A stretch of DNA of 64,000 bases from the human T2T-CHM13v2.0 reference genome, Homo sapiens: the NCBI RefSeq assembly GCF_009914755.1, contig NC_060925.1; one strand, given 5' to 3'. Positions 13,136-43,156 of this stretch are shown in pieces. Position 1 is the first letter of the stretch. Each line of letters begins with the position of its first letter. The notes below the pieces were generated by a model. The model saw only the letters and a list, made by a program, of their open reading frames with translations, did not search any database and was not told the origin of the DNA. Made by a program: the position numbers and the translations under genes.

Positions 13136-14157
13136 GAAAACTAGCATTTAACCAGTATCTAGTAACTCTGTGCGAGCTATTGGAGGCAAAGTAGGAAGAA
13201 GAGGGGCTATAACATGAAGCAGCTCCCAAGTTCCACCATTTTTAGTTGTGCGATGTTGGTCAAGTCTGAAATTTCCTCCTCTGCATCTAACTCAGATGTT
13301 AGCTGGGTGGCCACCTTCTTTGAGATATCAATTCAATGAACACTCATTCCTCTCCTCTGTGGTTTCAGAAGGACTTACCTTCTCATCGTCGTTCTGGCTC
13401 TGGGTTCCTCATTCTGAGACTTCCCCCTCTCGTCTCTCTCAATCTCACCTGCATCTCATTTCCTAGGGATACTTTTCCCCCTTTTGCATCACACTGGTCC
13501 TAATGTTGGATGCTGACCTTTTTATTTTTCCCCCAGATCTTTTAAATACAGCATTTGTATGTATAGCAGATCACAGTGAAGATGTATGCGAGAATGGAAA
13601 AATTTTGCATCACATTTGAGTTCCTTAGCCATCACCATCCTGTAGGGAAATTTTTACTATTGATGCTATTGTTACTTTTCTCCACTGTTTACAACTTTCC
13701 CTTATTTCTGTTTCTCTTCTCTTCCTTGCTTCGTCTTCCCTCTTCTCTCTCACCCGTACATGTCTACTCATTTCTTATGCAGAGCAGTTCGGATCTTTTT
13801 TCTTATTGTCTTCTTTCCATCTCATCCTCCACAACCAAAGCACCAAGGCACTTGGGTTTTGTTCTACAGAAAGGTCGTTCCCTCCTGAAAATGAGGCTGA
13901 CGGAGACTCATTCCCCAGTCTCTCCAGCGCAAGCCCTGGTGCTTTCCACTTCACCCAGCTGGTCTGACAGTGGCTGATCCTAGATCAGAAAGCACTTGGT
14001 AAAATGGGAAAGAAGATAAGAAGGTATCATTATCATCATCGCTCTAGGTTGAATTACTAAAGTCATGATTTATCTTTCCTTCTTTTATTTATGATATCTT
14101 TCCTTCTCTTTCACCTCCCCATCCAATGACCACCAGAAATCTCTGTCCATTTCCCAG

Positions 14158-14366
14158 CAGCCAGAGCCGAAGTGTGCAGCGGCACCGGGGAAAGGTTCCG
14201 AATCTTCCGTGCCGAGAAGACCTATGCAGTGAAGGCCGGACGGTGGTATTTTGAATTTGAGACGGTCACTGCTGGAGACATGAGGGTTGGTTGGAGTCGT
14301 CCTGGTTGTCAACCGGATCAGGAGCTTGGCTCAGATGAACGTGCCTTTGCCTTTGATGGCTTCAAG
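14158..14366 (+). CDS. RYR2: RYR2 exon 28 (209 nt), SPRY2 domain
   Basis: ttcccag|CAGCCAGAGCC...TTCAAG|gtgagt; encodes (A)[34 protein letters not shown]...DGFK; phase 1 to 0. Confidence 0.96.
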
Positions 14367-32630: not shown

Positions 32631-32807
32631 CTGCTGTTTTAAGTAAACTTTTATTGGAACACCACCACGCTTGTTTGTTTACCTACTGTCTATGGCTGCT
32701 TTTGCACTATAGCTCAGAGTTGAGTCGTTGCAACAGAGGCCATATGATCCATGAAACCTAAAATGTCTTCTCTGTAGTCATTTATAGAGTTTGCTGAGCC
32801 CCAGGAT

Positions 32808-32975
32808 AAAGCATGGGCATTGGGATCCACCAGACTTGGATTTATTTTCTGGTCACTTAGTAGCTGTGAGGGCAAGTGATTTAAACTAAGATTTTGGTTT
32901 CCTCATGTGGAAAATGGTAATAACGATTCCTATCTCATTGGATGGTTGTAAGGGTTCACCAAGATGAAACATCAG
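32808..32975 (+). mobile_element. MIR fragment
   Basis: cacttagtagctgtgagggcaagt...tttcctcatgtggaaaatgg. Confidence 0.65.
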
Positions 32976-34310
32976 GAAACATTAACTACTAATATGGAGC
33001 CATGTGTGCTGGGAATTTCATTTATTGGCGACCTCTTCATTACGCAGGATACTTTGTCATGTACTGAACAAAGGGAGGTGACGGAGGCCTGGCCCTTTCT
33101 CTGTGTGGCAGCTGAACAGTACCTGTAGTTTTTCTCCACTCTGTCTTCTTTGATCCCATTGCCACATAGTTGTCCTTGCTGTGTATAGGCTAATTTTTAA
33201 AAGTAAATGTAGTTTCTAGAAATATTGGTTGTTTTGTTATAATAGATTATTAAAACCATAATTTCAGAAGTAAGAATATGATTTGATTTTTCCTGTTAAG
33301 TTCTGCTTCACTTAAAATGAGAAAAAAATATGCTAGTTTCTACCTGTGGAGGTACTTGCATAAATACATTCCTTTAAAGGGGACCAAAACAGTAAAGCAA
33401 TAAATAGAAATACCATCTACTGGTATAATTGCTATAAACTAATGCAAAAATGGGGTGTATTTAATTATTTATTTTAAAAGTTTTATATTGCTTTTGAATA
33501 TTTGGAAAATACACAGGAATATAATGAAAGTGATTAAAAATTACAAACATTCCCACTACACAGAGAAAAAATTGACTTTTAATACATCTCTCCTACTTAA
33601 AGAACTGAGATGATAGTGTAAAAATAATTTTCCATCACCTCCTTTTTAACTTAATATTACATATTTGTCCAAAGGCTTAGAAACATTTTAAACATACTTT
33701 TTTGGTTTTTTTAAAATCAACTTTTTATTTTGAGGAATATCTGCCCTGCAGAAAAGTGCAAAAAAATGCTTTGGTAACACCTGTATATTCTTCAATCGTC
33801 AATTATTTTTATTTGCCATATTAATTTTATCTCTCTCTACAGTTTATTTTGTTGAGCCCTAAAGATAACTTTTAATGGCTGCACGTATTTACTCCTGTGT
33901 ATGTATCATAGTTAATTATTCTCAGGAATAGATTATTTCTCTTTTTACCTTTTTTTACCATTTAAAATTCAGTTCACTGAGCATTCGTGCTAAGCATTAT
34001 ACATACAAGATCTAACTTTAAAACTATAACCCTAAGGGGCAGGAGTTACAGAAGATAGGATTAAAGCTTAGAGAATTTAAGTAACTTGCCAAAGGTCAAA
34101 TAGCTAACAAGTGGAGGGGCTAAGACATGAATCCTGGTTTACTGGACTTAGAACTCTGTGTTTTTAATCACTTCATAGTAATATCTGTCTGCCATCTTCT
34201 TAGATGTTAACTCTTCTACAAAACCTTCCTGACTCCCATCTCTCCATACTTCCTTTGCTCCTAGAACCCTGGCTGCTTAGATGGATGGTACGCTATTTCA
34301 GTATAACAAC

Positions 34311-36847: not shown

Positions 36848-37930
36848 CTATCAGTAGATGGAAAACTTTTAAATTTTTGCCTCCAATTCTTTTTTTTCTT
36901 GAGCTATGTATGAGGAAATCTATAGCTCAGACTGTGTCTGGTGTTAGTATGTATCAAGCTCTTTAGCCAGAAGGAGGAGCAAGGCAAGTGAACCACATCC
37001 CTTGGCACTTAGTTCCTTCTTACTTTCCCTATATGAGAGAGTACATGCACTCCTGAGCAAGGAGACTGCAGGGCGGGGATCTCTAGAATCCCCGGAGGAC
37101 CAGGGGCTGCATAGCATTTACTTCATCTTACAGAGTTAAGTCTGAGATGACAGAAGGGACTTATCTAGGGCCCACAGCTAGTAAATTATAATGTCAAGAT
37201 CAAATCCTGGTTTTCTCACCCTTATGGGTAATATTTAATGTCATTGTTCCCTTTATTACACTACTTTTTTCACCCTAGGGTGACAGCTCTCACAAAGTTC
37301 GGTCCTGGAACAATATGTTTGATAATTCTATACTAACAGGATCATATACTAATGGTACTAAAACTTGATTTTTTTTTCTTCCCAGGATTCATACCTGTGT
37401 GTAGCCTTGGAGTGGCTCAAGTGGGTAGGATGAACTTTGGAAAGGATGTCAGCACCTTGAAATATTTCACCATCTGTGGCTTACAAGAGGGCTATGAACC
37501 ATTTGCCGTTAATACAAACAGGGATATTACCATGTGGCTGAGCAAGAGGCTTCCTCAGTTTCTTCAAGTTCCATCAAACCATGAACATATAGAGGTTTGC
37601 TTTTTCTTTAAAAATCAGGCCATTTCTAAAAAGCAGGAAAAGAATATCTTTATACACAGGAACTTCTGCTTAGACAATTATTGTGACTTACTTAAAATGA
37701 TGACCTTGATGTGTTATATAGTAGTGGAATCTAAGCAAAGATGGTACTTTCTACCAGCTATCAGTGGATGGGAAACTTTTAAATTTTTGCTTTCAATTCT
37801 TTTTTTTTTTTCTTGAGCTATGTGTGAAGAAGTTTATAGCTCAGACTATGTCTGGGGTTTGTACGCATCAAGCTCTTTAGCTAGAAGAAAGATCAAGGCA
37901 AAGGGAACCACATCCATTCTCATATTAGTT
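36848..37930. repeat. Pair of ~170-bp diverged direct repeats (36848-37014 and 37758-37930) flanking exon 30
   Basis: ctatcagt...aaacttttaaatttttgc...tgagctat...atagctcagact...caagctctttagc...aaccacatcc in both copies. Confidence 0.9.
37386..37594 (+). CDS. RYR2: RYR2 exon 30 (209 nt)
   Basis: ttcccag|GATTCATACCT...ATAGAG|gtttgc; (G)[18 protein letters not shown]...NHEHIE; phase 1 to 0. Confidence 0.96.
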
Positions 37931-38231
37931 ACGTTACAAGTAGCTTGTTAGAATGATGAAAAATACTTTCCTTTTTATGTGTGGGCAATGTCAGGCTGAA
38001 TCTGAATATATAGAATTATAAGATAAATTTCCGAAACCGTCTTTAGAAACAGAAGCAGAACTCTATGACTATATCCATAGCACAGTAATCTGTTTAATCA
38101 TCTCTTACAAAATGATGCCATGTGTGGACCGCATTTGGGATTCTGAAAACGTGATGTGCCTTAGTCATCTTTAGAATCAGGAAATTGACAATGGTGATTG
38201 GAATGTGAACTATCGCTTCTTCGTTTGCTAG

Positions 38232-38584
38232 GTGACCAGAATAGACGGCACCATAGACAGTTCCCCATGTTTAAAGGTCACTCAGAAGTCTTTTGGTTCT
38301 CAGAACAGCAACACTGATATCATGTTTTATCGCCTGAGCATGCCGATCGAGTGCGCGGAGGTCTTCTCCAAGACGGTGGCTGGAGGGCTCCCTGGGGCTG
38401 GCCTTTTTGGGCCCAAGAATGACTTGGAAGATTATGATGCTGATTCTGACTTTGAGGTTCTGATGAAGACAGCTCATGGCCATCTAGTGCCCGATCGTGT
38501 TGACAAAGACAAAGAAGCTACTAAACCAGAGTTTAACAACCACAAAGATTATGCCCAGGAAAAGCCCTCTCGTCTGAAACAAAG
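38232..38584 (+). CDS. RYR2: RYR2 exon 31 (353 nt), includes most of divergent region 2
   Basis: ttgctag|GTGACCAGA...AAACAAAG|gttact; VTRIDGTIDSSPCLKV...PSRLKQ(R); phase 0 to 2. Confidence 0.96.
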
Positions 38585-38669
38585 GTTACTAATTTATACG
38601 CTGTGATTTTAAATTTGTAGTTATGTGAGGAGGGTTACAGTCCAGAGTAAAGGGTCTCCTAGTGTAAAT

Positions 38670-38757
38670 TTTTTCCTCCTTCTCCTCCTCCTCCCCCTCC
38701 TCCTCTTCCCCCTTCTCCTCCTCCCCCTTCTCCTCCTCCCCCTTCTCCTCCTCCTCT
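38670..38757. repeat. (CCT)-rich polypyrimidine low-complexity tract
   Basis: Pure C/T run with repeated ccccttctcctcct units. Confidence 0.9.
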
Positions 38758-40994: not shown

Positions 40995-41155
40995 TACTAT
41001 TACTCAGTGAGAATCTTTCCTGGACAAGAACCTGCTAATGTCTGGGTGGGCTGGATTACATCAGATTTCCATCAGTATGACACAGGCTTTGACTTGGACA
41101 GAGTTCGCACAGTAACAGTTACTCTAGGAGATGAAAAAGGAAAAGTGCATGAAAG
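40995..41155 (+). CDS. RYR2: RYR2 exon 33 (161 nt), SPRY3 domain
   Basis: ttcacag|TACTATTAC...CATGAAAG|gttagt; [20 protein letters not shown]...KVHE(S); phase 0 to 2. Confidence 0.97.
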
Positions 41156-41574
41156 GTTAGTTTTCCTCAATTTTTTGCAAGAATGACATGTGAAAAAAAT
41201 ATTGGTGAACCTAGCTATTCCTTTTCCTTGTATTTTGTGACCAAGATATTTCTATTTATAGGAAGAATATAATCAAGCCATTAATGTCAATGTCGTTTTT
41301 GTTATTCATACAAACCAGTTAAGGAATCTAAATGTGTTAAATGTGCAAACATTGTACAGTAAGAGCAGTGCAGCCTTTTGGGGTAATGATCATATATTCC
41401 TTCAGGTAACATGACTAACAGCTTGGGTTACCAATACTTAGCCTTTGTTTTAGGGTTGAGAGATGGGTGAATGTGCGGCTTTTAACCAATGACTTGATAT
41501 AGATTTCGGGAACTGGCTATGTGGTGGGGAGAAAACTGTGAAGACAATGTGGGCTGGTAGTTTAGACCAGGTGG

Positions 41575-41695
41575 ACGCATTTGAACTCGGACTGAGGAGA
41601 AGTGGGTTCTTTCCTCAGCTTTGCCATTGACTCGCTGTGTGGCTTTGGGTAAGTCAGTTACACTTTCTGTGCCATCTTTTTTTCATTTGTAAAAC
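41575..41695 (+). mobile_element. MIR SINE core fragment hosting the 30-nt exon
   Basis: gggttctttcctcagctttgccattgactcgctgtgtggctttgggtaagtcagttacactttctgtg...catttgtaaaa parallels the MIR core gggttcgaatcccggctctgccacttactagctgtgtgaccttgggcaagttacttaacctctctgtg...catctgtaaaa. Confidence 0.8.
41619..41648 (+). CDS. RYR2: RYR2 alternative 30-nt cassette exon (adds FAIDSLCGFG), MIR-derived
   Basis: ttctttcctcag|CTTTGCCATTGACTCGCTGTGTGGCTTTGG|gtaagt; phase 2/2 fits the exon 33/34 junction; peptide matches the human RyR2 30-bp splice insert as I recall it. Confidence 0.9.
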
Positions 41696-42996
41696 AAACC
41701 AAACTCAAACCAAACCTTCAAAAAAGTGAAGAAGGCTATGTTCCTTGCAGAATAAGACAAGAGAAGATCTGACCATTGGCTTCTACCTTTTGTGCCCATG
41801 CATCCTCTCTGATCTGCTGTGACAGGTCTCCGAAAGAGTCCTTTATAACGTTGCTTTTCTTCTATACTTGCACCATCATTTTTTGGGAAACTCACTTTCC
41901 TGCCCTCGGGTTGTAACATATGAAGCATAATGGACTTAGCATTTTCAATGGGAGCCCAGCAAAAATCTCTAATGAAGAGCTCTTTACATAAGTTTGGAAC
42001 AAAAAAACCACATGTCTCCAGGAATATTTTTTGGGGGCCATGCTTAATTTTCAGGGATGGCAACAGTATAAGTAAAGAACTCAATATAGGGATGGGATAA
42101 CTGAAAGATGATTTTGTTGGAGGAAATGGAAGATAGGGAAGGGTCATTGGATTTTATGTAGATAGTGTGAAGAAATGCAGCCTACATTTGATTACTCAAA
42201 AACTGATTTATCCCAGCCTTTTTGTTCTTTCCCTTCTGCTTGCCTGGCTTTAGCCTTTTTTGCTGGTTTTGTTAATATGTTTACTGTACAGTGGCAAAGA
42301 AAGAGAATGCTGATAAGGCTCAAATTACTTAACTTTGTTACCATCTCTAGTAAAAGCTTTAGGGAAGGTGAAAATCAGGTGGCATTTGTGGTTAATATCA
42401 CTGGGTTTTTTTTTTTTTTTTTTTTTTTTTGCATATTCTAGTTAAGTCTGTCTCTCAGATCACTGGGAATTGTCCAGAAAGGGGCAAAATTTTAGCCAAA
42501 TTTTAAGTATATCAAATCACTGAAGGCTTATGTAGAATTTGCCTAAGGACTTTGATAGTGTCTGGAAATAAATGCTTCTTATTTCAGAACAAGTGGTAAA
42601 ACAAAACAAAACAAAAAAAAGCTAAAAAAAATCCATGAGATGAAAATTACAAATTTGGATGATTTTTAAATAGTTAAACTTTTTTGAACCCAGAAAAAGG
42701 TCTAGTTTGGTTTGAGTTTTTGGAGAGAAGGTGCAGGTCAGTTCTTACTTGGTTCCAACTTGTTGACCTGTCTTCATTAGGTGTGAAATGTAGAGACTTA
42801 TAAGACCTGATTCAGAACGTCCACTGCAGTCAATGGAGTTTTGCTCAGAATCACAGAATCGGGCCTATTGTGCACCTCTCCCATTACAGCATGAGCTTGT
42901 TGCTTGCGCAGCATAATTTAGTTAGTTTGCAAGATATACCTGCTTTCTCTTTTATCTGTGGTTGTACAAAGATAAAAATGTTCTTTTGAAATTCAG

Positions 42997-43156
42997 CATC
43001 AAACGCAGCAACTGCTATATGGTATGTGCGGGTGAGAGCATGAGCCCCGGGCAAGGACGCAACAATAATGGACTGGAGATTGGCTGTGTGGTGGATGCTG
43101 CCAGCGGGCTGCTCACATTCATTGCCAATGGCAAGGAACTGAGCACATACTATCAG
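42997..43156 (+). CDS. RYR2: RYR2 exon 34 (160 nt), SPRY3 domain
   Basis: aattcag|CATCAAACGC...TATCAG|gtacgc; IKRSNCYMVCAGESMSPGQG...LSTYYQ; phase 2 to 0. Confidence 0.97.

What the first reader, a model, noticed from the sequence alone, without database searches (positions are those of the whole stretch)
41575..41695. RYR2 30-nt alternative exon (FAIDSLCGFG) appears to be an exonised MIR SINE core
Seen: ttctttcctcag|30 nt|gtaagt at 41619-41648, phase 2/2, inserting FAIDSLCGFG between ...VHES and IKRSN in SPRY3. It is too short for the ORF track. Recalled: a human RyR2 30-bp splice variant with this peptide has been reported near residue 1479, which is where my exon-length count places this junction. 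Inference: the surrounding sequence is a sense MIR core in which GGCAAGT became GGTAAGT (perfect donor) and an AG acceptor arose upstream. The MIR at ~32870 keeps GGCAAGT. A transposon fragment would thus supply a 10-aa, Cys-containing loop to the cardiac calcium-release channel. I do not know whether the MIR origin has been noted before.
Basis: partly seen in the sequence, partly recalled or inferred. Interest (0 to 1): 0.8.

Follow-up and report, generated by a model that had tools for sequence, protein, structure and literature searches.

The report
RYR2 30-nt exon from MIR repeat
The small optional 30-base exon of the human heart calcium-release channel gene RYR2 is built entirely from a fragment of an ancient MIR repeat, an ordinary way for new exons to arise, applied here to a medically important gene.

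Summary
Window 41619-41648 is a 30-nt cassette flanked by ttctttcctcAG and GTAAGT. Spliced between exons 40995-41155 and 42997-43156, it inserts FAIDSLCGFG after Ser1479, inside a SPRY domain.

The MIR reading also holds. I built a profile from 30 other human copies of the repeat, without the RYR2 copy. It hits window 41585-41694 on the + strand with E = 2e-11. Reversed-sequence controls gave 0 hits. The same profile lands exactly on two published RepeatMasker-annotated MIR and MIRb loci.

Both splice sites and all 30 coding bases lie inside the repeat. Compared with the family consensus, the RYR2 copy differs in four ways:
- The donor has T where the consensus has C (GCAAGT became GTAAGT). 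T occurs in 119 of 887 strict-core copies genome-wide.
- The acceptor AG is a common decay state of the family.
- The pyrimidine run before the AG is 10 nt; the best of 44 other copies has 6.
- TCG stands where the consensus has an in-frame TAG stop.

The exon itself is already known: RefSeq annotates it, and reviews cite George 2007. None of my 10 paper searches linked RYR2 to MIR, but the main MIR-exon surveys were not readable. I could not date the exonisation or measure exon usage here.

The parts
41585..41694 (+). Sense-oriented MIR fragment (envelope 41569-41697). It covers part of the tRNA-related head and the conserved central domain and is 3'-truncated.
   Evidence: nhmmer with a profile of 30 other human copies: 37.0 bits, E = 2e-11, profile positions 109-219 of 355. 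76 of 107 aligned positions (71%) match the family majority consensus. Reversed and shuffled controls gave 0 hits.
41606..41618 (+). Polypyrimidine tract and acceptor AG (gttctttcctcAG), inside the MIR.
   Evidence: Only 6 of 13 positions match the consensus GTTTAAATCCTAG. The uninterrupted pyrimidine run is 10 nt; the best of 44 other family copies has 6 and most have 4. AG occurs at these columns in 12 of 42 copies and GG in 11 of 42.
41619..41648 (+). 30-nt alternative coding exon that adds FAIDSLCGFG after Ser1479.
   Evidence: plus the RefSeq table supplied by the hub. It occupies profile positions 144-173. 23 of 30 positions match the consensus.
41632..41634 (+). Codon TCG (Ser) where the family consensus has an in-frame TAG stop.
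   Evidence: In the RYR2 frame the consensus reads C TCT ACC ACT TAC TAG CTG TGT GAC CTT GG. RYR2 has TCG at that codon. By hand count, 25 of the 77 copies with the same AG-30 nt-GTA layout have TAG, and only RYR2 has TCG.
41649..41654 (+). Donor GTAAGT, derived from the family's GCAAGT by a C-to-T change at 41650.
   Evidence: Genome-wide, 119 of 887 strict-core matches carry T and 768 carry C.
41691..41716 (.). (AAACC)n microsatellite that abuts the truncated 3' end of the MIR fragment.
   Evidence: Tandem Repeats Finder: period 5, 5.0 copies.
40995..41155 (+). Upstream constitutive RYR2 exon (residues 1426-1478 plus two bases of Ser1479).
   Evidence: Pfam SPRY profile positions 2-44.
42997..43156 (+). 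Downstream constitutive RYR2 exon (IKRSNCYMV...).
   Evidence: Pfam SPRY profile positions 43-94.

Best explanation
The 30-nt RYR2 alternative exon is an exonised fragment of a MIR SINE that lies in the sense orientation in the intron between exons 40995-41155 and 42997-43156. The repeat supplies the pyrimidine tract, the acceptor AG, all 30 coding bases and the donor.

Compared with the family consensus, four kinds of change separate a silent MIR copy from this exon:
1. The acceptor AG. The family's copies split between CA|G and TG|G at this site. I read that as two-way decay of a CpG; this step is inferred.
2. Replacement of the purines upstream of the AG, giving a 10-nt pyrimidine run. This is shown and is unusual for the family.
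3. C to T in GGGCAAGT, giving a GTAAGT donor. This is shown.
4. A to C turning an in-frame TAG into TCG, which opens the frame in the phase set by the upstream exon. This is shown.

The order and dates of these changes are unknown. When the exon is included, ten residues are added after Ser1479 inside the third SPRY domain of the channel. That the exon is only optionally included probably reflects its very small size and flanking repressor-type motifs; this step is inferred.
For: Sequence and frame.

Repeat family:
- The segment hits 5 other chromosomes in the same genome.
- A consensus-like copy gives 518 first-look candidates, and all 40 that were scored are significant, on 17 contigs.
- About 19 by-catch copies were found in about 170 kb.
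- The profile, built without the RYR2 copy, hits 41585-41694 (+) at E = 2e-11. Reversed and shuffled controls were empty.

Naming as MIR:
- PMC5381342 defines MIR (passages read) and prints annotated loci in its supplement.
- I located two of those loci in this genome.
- The profile covers exactly the annotated elements. L037 1751-2019 is 269 nt, the annotated length, at E = 2e-10. L038 1275-1130 is at E = 7e-7.

Changes relative to the consensus.

Protein position.

Exon known: the hub's RefSeq table, and review PMC11263117, which states that 24-bp and 30-bp RYR2 insertions exist and cites George 2007 (passages read).
Against: - No Dfam or RepeatMasker run was possible. The family name rests on a home-made profile tied to two published loci, and the subfamily (MIR, MIRb, MIRc or MIR3) is unresolved.
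- The excess divergence of the pyrimidine-tract segment is only marginal statistically: 7 of 13 versus 24 of 94 mismatches, Fisher p = 0.05.
- Some of the 30 profile copies are segmental duplicates of one another (L010/L012/L015 and L013/L014/L021), so the copy counts are not fully independent.
- No RNA evidence was seen here. Usage rests on RefSeq and on secondary citations.
- All 130 RyR2 proteins from other species in which a junction was found lack the insert. That listing is ranked by score against an insert-less query, so it would hide insert-bearing isoforms.
Confidence: 0.93

Rival explanations
1. The exon is MIR-derived but is splicing noise. On this view it is a low-level, possibly lineage-restricted by-product of a MIR copy that drifted into good splice sites. 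It would have no selected function in the channel.
For: The same AG-30 nt-GTA layout occurs in 77 strict-pattern MIR copies genome-wide, so such latent exons are common decay products. All solved RyR2 chains are 4966-4968 residues long and so lack the insert. None of the 130 RyR2 proteins from other species that I inspected has the insert (weak evidence, see text). The exon matches the consensus at 23 of 30 positions and the downstream intronic part at 29 of 37, so it shows no extra conservation.
Against: The frame is open only because the consensus TAG was lost. The pyrimidine tract is far better than in any of 44 other copies. Both fit selection, although ascertainment could also explain them. 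Review PMC11263117 reports, citing George 2007, that the 24- and 30-bp variants differ in cellular localisation and in modulation of Ca2+ release. RefSeq keeps the exon.
Confidence: 0.4
2. The segment is not MIR. On this view the resemblance is chance, or the segment belongs to a different repeat family that only shares a short motif.
For: Single-sequence self-searches of the window found nothing convincing: the best blastn hit was E = 0.016 and the best nhmmer hit E = 0.23. The 3' LINE-related part of a full MIR is absent, because the fragment ends at 41694.
Against: The profile hit is E = 2e-11 over 110 nt. The controls were empty. The profile coincides to the base with published MIR and MIRb annotations. 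The fragment's 71% identity to the consensus lies inside the range of 53 other copies, 57-82%.
Confidence: 0.03

Closest known systems
Exonised MIR elements in human genes (Krull et al. 2007 Genome Res; Lin et al. 2009 Hum Mol Genet). I saw both only as reference-list entries in PMC2879366; neither paper is held.
   Same: An ancient intronic MIR copy acquires splice sites by point substitutions and becomes an alternatively spliced cassette exon.
   Different: This case is a 30-nt coding micro-cassette lying wholly inside the central domain of a sense-strand copy, in a disease gene. Whether it appears in those surveys' lists could not be checked.
Alu exonisation (as described in PMC2879366, passages read)
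   Same: A few substitutions in an intronic SINE create a 3' or 5' splice site, and the new exon is alternatively spliced.
   Different: According to that text, Alu exons arise mostly from antisense, primate-specific copies. Here the donor repeat is a sense-strand MIR, a family that stopped amplifying about 130 Myr ago (PMC5381342).
RYR2 24-bp alternative exon (George 2007, as cited in PMC6052891 and PMC3787966; passages read)
   Same: It is a second very small in-frame optional exon of the same gene, described in the same primary study.
   Different: It lies at a different place in the gene, outside this window. It is reported to redirect the protein to intranuclear cisternae and to rise when RBM20 is lost. 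I did not examine its origin.
CHRNA1 exon P3A (PMC3796306; search listing and abstract only)
   Same: It is an in-frame optional exon in a muscle channel gene. That paper cites the MIR-exonisation study, and the MIR origin of P3A is my recollection.
   Different: According to the abstract, inclusion of P3A disables receptor assembly. No such effect is known for the RYR2 insert.

Membership tests
MIR SINE (as defined in PMC5381342) | Significant sequence similarity to the family | tested here: met
   A profile of 30 other human copies hits 41585-41694 (+) at E = 2e-11 and 37 bits. Controls gave 0 hits. Identity to the family consensus is 71%, within the 57-82% range of other copies.
MIR SINE (as defined in PMC5381342) | The profile used really represents what is annotated as MIR | tested here: met
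   The published loci MIR_dup3493 and MIRb_dup5848 (supplement) were located in this genome. The profile covers them exactly: L037 1751-2019, 269 nt, E = 2e-10; L038 1275-1130, E = 7e-7.
MIR SINE (as defined in PMC5381342) | Very high copy number, dispersed over the genome (more than 500,000 annotated copies) | tested here: met
   518 first-look candidates, with 40 of 40 scored significant, on 17 contigs. 887 strict-core pattern matches against 0 for the reversed pattern. About 19 by-catch copies in about 170 kb.
MIR SINE (as defined in PMC5381342) | Full architecture: tRNA-related head, 70-bp conserved central domain and LINE-related 3' end (about 260 bp). This defines the intact element, not every fragment. 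| tested here: inconclusive
   The fragment covers profile positions 109-219, that is part of the head and the central domain. The 3' part is missing, replaced at 41691-41716 by (AAACC)n. The paper notes that many annotated MIRs are truncated. A and B boxes were not examined.
MIR SINE (as defined in PMC5381342) | Subfamily assignment (MIR, MIRb, MIRc or MIR3) | not testable with these tools
Exonised transposable element (cassette exon) | Both splice sites and the exon body lie inside the repeat | tested here: met
   AG at profile positions 142-143, exon at 144-173 and GT at 174-175, all within the aligned hit 109-219.
Exonised transposable element (cassette exon) | The exon is actually spliced into mRNA | not testable with these tools
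   Only the hub's RefSeq table (exon of other transcripts) and secondary citations of George 2007 are available. No RNA-seq is available here.
Published RyR2 30-bp splice insertion (George 2007; Tunwell 1996 is recalled) | 30 bp, in frame, at about residue 1479, with this peptide | tested here: inconclusive
   The length, frame and position after Ser1479 are met. The primary papers are not held, and the peptide string is in 0 searchable papers. Identity with the published variant therefore rests on length, on RefSeq and on recollection.

The most novel reading that the evidence does not exclude
The exon may be a lineage-restricted innovation, perhaps limited to anthropoid primates. On this reading an ancient MIR copy was converted by a small set of substitutions: loss of a stop, gain of a donor and improvement of the pyrimidine tract. 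The result would be a developmentally regulated coding micro-exon that adds a Cys-containing loop to SPRY3 of the cardiac calcium-release channel. A transposon fragment would then tune RyR2 behaviour in the fetal heart or brain, and this origin would not yet have been described in print.
Probability: 0.25. Interest if true: 0.55.

Novelty: new member of a known kind. Interest (0 to 1): 0.35.

Why it matters
RYR2 is a major gene for arrhythmia and cardiomyopathy, and its small optional exons are usually treated as ordinary gene parts. Knowing that this exon is a co-opted MIR fragment has three practical consequences. First, it predicts that the exon may be absent or unusable in model species such as mouse, because its presence depends on a few lineage-specific substitutions. 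Second, it identifies the positions whose variants should switch the exon on or off: the donor T at 41650, the TCG codon at 41632-41634 and the pyrimidine tract at 41608-41616. Third, it adds a clear, well-dissected example of MIR exonisation that produces coding sequence in an ion channel. In kind it is not surprising, since MIR exonisation is well documented.

Tried and rejected
**Sequence searches within the session**
- Single-sequence self-comparison of the window (blastn and nhmmer with 41500-41760 and with 32760-33010) was too insensitive for copies this diverged. I replaced it with a family profile.
I used by-catch copies in the flanks of loci already held instead.
- A 38-place genome pattern was over the size limit. 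I shortened it to 35 places.

**Earlier findings**

**Literature (all 10 paper searches used)**
- The peptide string: 0 papers.
- RyR2 + 30-bp + 24-bp + splice: 0 papers.
- exoniz + RYR2: 2 papers. I checked one and it was irrelevant; the other I judged from its title and abstract only.
- RYR2 + 'interspersed repeat': 4 papers. I checked one and it was irrelevant.
- A 25-nt consensus string: 0 papers.
- RYR2 + microexon: 15 papers. The one I opened concerns exon 75.
- RYR2 with MIR terms: none of the 9 papers listed holds RYR2.
- Not held: George 2007, Tunwell 1996, Krull 2007 and Lin 2009.
- The supplements of PMC2879366 were unreadable.
- The supplements of PMC3765721 hold no RYR2.

**Dating through proteins of other species**
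- 10 partial RyR2 proteins with a recognisable junction (of 43 hits) and all 120 long RyR2 proteins listed show VHE-SI-KRSN without the insert.
- Only the best 120 of 1077 hits are listed, ranked against an insert-less query. Insert-bearing isoforms would fall below the cut, so I draw no conclusion from this.

**Structure**
- An AlphaFold2 model of a 425-residue RyR2 fragment (P0001 with 7 relatives) came out at mean pLDDT 37. That is too poor to say whether the junction lies in a loop.

Full report
**1. The observation**

Window 41619-41648 reads CTTTGCCATTGACTCGCTGTGTGGCTTTGG. It is preceded by gggttctttcctcAG and followed by GTAAGTcag.

In one search a script joined the RefSeq exons listed by the hub. 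The coding frame is open, and adding the 30-nt piece between exons 40995-41155 and 42997-43156 keeps it open. The result reads ...[29 protein letters not shown].... Both junctions split a codon after its second base.

The upstream exon aligns residue for residue to positions 1426-1478 of RyR2 chains in the Protein Data Bank. The insert therefore follows Ser1479. All RyR2 chains found are 4966-4968 residues long, so no solved structure contains the insert.

The upstream exon matches Pfam SPRY profile positions 2-44 and the downstream exon positions 43-94 of 121. The insert therefore falls inside a SPRY domain. That this is the third SPRY domain follows from the residue numbers and from general knowledge of RyR architecture.

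The hub's table lists 41619-41648 as an exon of other RefSeq transcripts.

**2. Is the surrounding sequence a repeat?**

A search of the window against itself with the single segment was not sensitive enough.

The window's own genome is searchable. The 181-nt segment 41540-41720 hit five other chromosomes at E = 2e-9 to 6e-6. An alignment showed a shared core.

The most consensus-like of these copies (on contig 12) was used as a second query. It gave 518 first-look candidates. All 40 that were scored were significant, and they lie on 17 contigs.

I aligned that copy and 29 of its matches, leaving out the RYR2 copy, and built an nhmmer profile from the 30 sequences. In the 64-kb window the profile finds four places:

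| Window position | Strand | E-value |
|---|---|---|
| 34064-34166 | - | 1e-13 |
| 41585-41694 | + | 2e-11 (37 bits) |
| 32805-32967 | + | 1e-8 |
| 55290-55359 | + | 1e-5 |

Three controls were empty:
- The reversed window gave 0 hits at E <= 1.
- 170 kb of reversed loci plus window gave 0 hits at E <= 1.
- 500 shuffles of the segment gave no hit.

In the flanks of the fetched loci and in the window, the profile picked up about 19 further untargeted copies in about 170 kb. That is roughly one per 9 kb, so this is a very abundant family.

**3. Is the family MIR?**

I recognised the consensus as MIR from memory, and I also tied the name to a source. Carnevali et al. (PMC5381342, passages read) describe MIR as follows:
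- It is about 260 bp long.
- It has a tRNA-related head, a 70-bp conserved central domain and a LINE-related 3' end.
- It has more than 500,000 annotated copies in four subfamilies.
- It has been inactive for about 130 Myr.

Their supplement prints the genomic sequence of annotated loci. Using the first 24 bases of two printed sequences as anchors, I located MIR_dup3493 and MIRb_dup5848 in this genome. Each anchor matched once.

My profile hits exactly where the annotated elements lie:
- L037 1751-2019 (+), E = 2e-10. This is 269 nt, the annotated length, and it starts at the 251st printed base.
- L038 1275-1130 (-), E = 7e-7.

The profile therefore models what RepeatMasker calls MIR or MIRb. 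The subfamily of the RYR2 fragment cannot be resolved here.

**4. Anatomy of the exonisation**

In the profile alignment the positions are as follows:

| Feature | Profile positions |
|---|---|
| Acceptor AG | 142-143 |
| Exon | 144-173 |
| Donor GT | 174-175 |
| Whole aligned hit | 109-219 |

There is no gap between the AG and the GT. By offset from MIR_dup3493, the exon corresponds to roughly positions 64-93 of the element, at the 5' side of the conserved central domain.

Overall the fragment matches the family majority consensus at 76 of 107 positions (71%). This is within the 57-82% range of the 53 other copies.

By segment:

| Segment | Positions matching the consensus |
|---|---|
| Pyrimidine tract plus AG | 6 of 13 |
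| Exon | 23 of 30 |
| Donor | 5 of 6 |
| Downstream | 29 of 37 |

*Donor.* The consensus is GCAAGT and RYR2 has GTAAGT. A strict-core pattern matches 887 places in the genome, against 0 for the reversed control. Of these, 119 (13%) have T and 768 have C. In the profile alignment, leaving out the RYR2 row and the four copies found with the RYR2 segment itself, 33 of 44 copies have GC and 3 have GT.

*Acceptor.* In that same set of copies, 12 of 42 have AG and 11 of 42 have GG at these columns, as ...CA|G versus ...TG|G. I read this split as the two decay products of a CpG; that is an inference. The AG itself is therefore common in the family.

*Pyrimidine tract.* RYR2 has ten uninterrupted pyrimidines before the AG. 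Among the 44 other copies the best has 6 and most have 4. The consensus GTTTAAATCCTAG has become GTTCTTTCCTCAG. The excess of mismatches in this segment is only marginal (Fisher p = 0.05).

*Reading frame.* In the phase imposed by the upstream exon the consensus reads C TCT ACC ACT TAC TAG CTG TGT GAC CTT GG, with an in-frame stop. RYR2 has TCG at that codon.

A pattern for the layout AG-15 nt-GCTGTGTG-3 nt-TTGG-GTA finds 77 places in the genome, against 0 for the control, and one of them is RYR2. By my hand count 25 of the 77 keep TAG, and only RYR2 has TCG. Latent exons of this shape are thus a recurrent decay product of MIR. The RYR2 copy stands out for its pyrimidine tract and its open frame.

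**5. Splice-site quality and regulation**

The donor TGG|GTAAGT matches 7 of 9 consensus positions, with all six intronic positions matching. The pyrimidine run is second only to that of exon 37386 among the 11 exons in the window.

The sites are thus at least as good as those of the constitutive neighbours. I infer that optional use comes from the 30-nt size and from flanking elements.

TCTT motifs lie at 41608 and 41675. The text of PMC6052891 says that RBM20 binds intronic UCUU near the exons it represses. The review PMC11263117 names RBM20 and SRSF2 as regulators of the 24- and 30-bp variants. A four-base motif is weak evidence.

**6. What is known**

Reviews state that two RYR2 variants with 24-bp and 30-bp insertions exist and differ in localisation and Ca2+ release, citing George et al. 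2007 (PMC11263117). PMC6052891 and PMC3787966 describe the 24-bp insertion only.

The primary papers are not held. My memory of them is not a test: insertion after residue 1479, and the 30-bp form abundant in embryonic heart.

MIR exonisation as a phenomenon is established. Krull 2007 and Lin 2009 were seen only as references and are not held.

None of my 10 paper searches found a text that links RYR2 with MIR or with exonisation of this exon. The searches cover main texts only. The supplementary lists of the genome-wide surveys could not be read, apart from PMC3765721, which has no RYR2. Any genome-browser repeat track would also show the overlap. I therefore call this a new member of a known kind, not a new phenomenon.

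**7. What remains open**

*The date of exonisation.* In protein searches, 10 partial RyR2 sequences with a recognisable junction (of 43 hits) and all 120 long sequences listed lack the insert. They come from primates, other mammals, birds, reptiles and fish. Only the best 120 of 1077 hits are listed, ranked against an insert-less query, so this says nothing firm.

*Usage, and the structural place of the loop.* The fold attempt failed, with mean pLDDT 37.

**8. Verdict**

This is a tidy, well-supported case of MIR exonisation in an important gene. It is modest in surprise.

Noticed in passing
window 34064-34166 (-): An antisense MIR copy lies in the long intron upstream (profile E = 1e-13). It is the best-scoring copy in the window.
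   Followed up: partly
window 55290-55359 (+): A short MIR core fragment (E = 1e-5) lies just beyond the long masked repeat at 50937-55061.
   Followed up: no
window 14155-14160: There is a tandem acceptor cccAG|CAG|CC (NAGNAG). It explains the alternative exon start 14161 versus 14158 in the hub's table, which is a one-codon difference.
   Followed up: partly
window 37592-37600: The donor of constitutive exon 37386-37594 is weak (GAG|GTTTGC, 5 of 9 consensus positions). It lies inside the RefSeq enhancer feature 37551-38749.
   Followed up: no
window 41608-41611 and 41675-41678: TCTT motifs flank the 30-nt exon. One is in the pyrimidine tract and the other is 27 nt into the downstream intron. 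This motif type is reported for RBM20-repressed exons (PMC6052891 text). A four-base motif could be there by chance.
   Followed up: no
L010, L012, L015 (contigs 10, 1, 17) and L013, L014, L021 (contigs 12, 10, 22): There are two groups of nearly identical MIR-containing segments on different chromosomes. These are segmental duplications that carry the repeat along, so they are not independent family copies.
   Followed up: no
proteins P0004, P0007-P0010, P0012 and others: Short 'proteins' from unnamed metagenome sources read from intron sequence straight into the exon IKRSNCYMV.... They look like vertebrate host DNA assembled within metagenomes and called as open reading frames.
   Followed up: no
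L037 2146-2355 (-): A second, inverted MIR copy (E = 4e-16) lies about 130 bp downstream of the published MIR_dup3493 locus.
   Followed up: no
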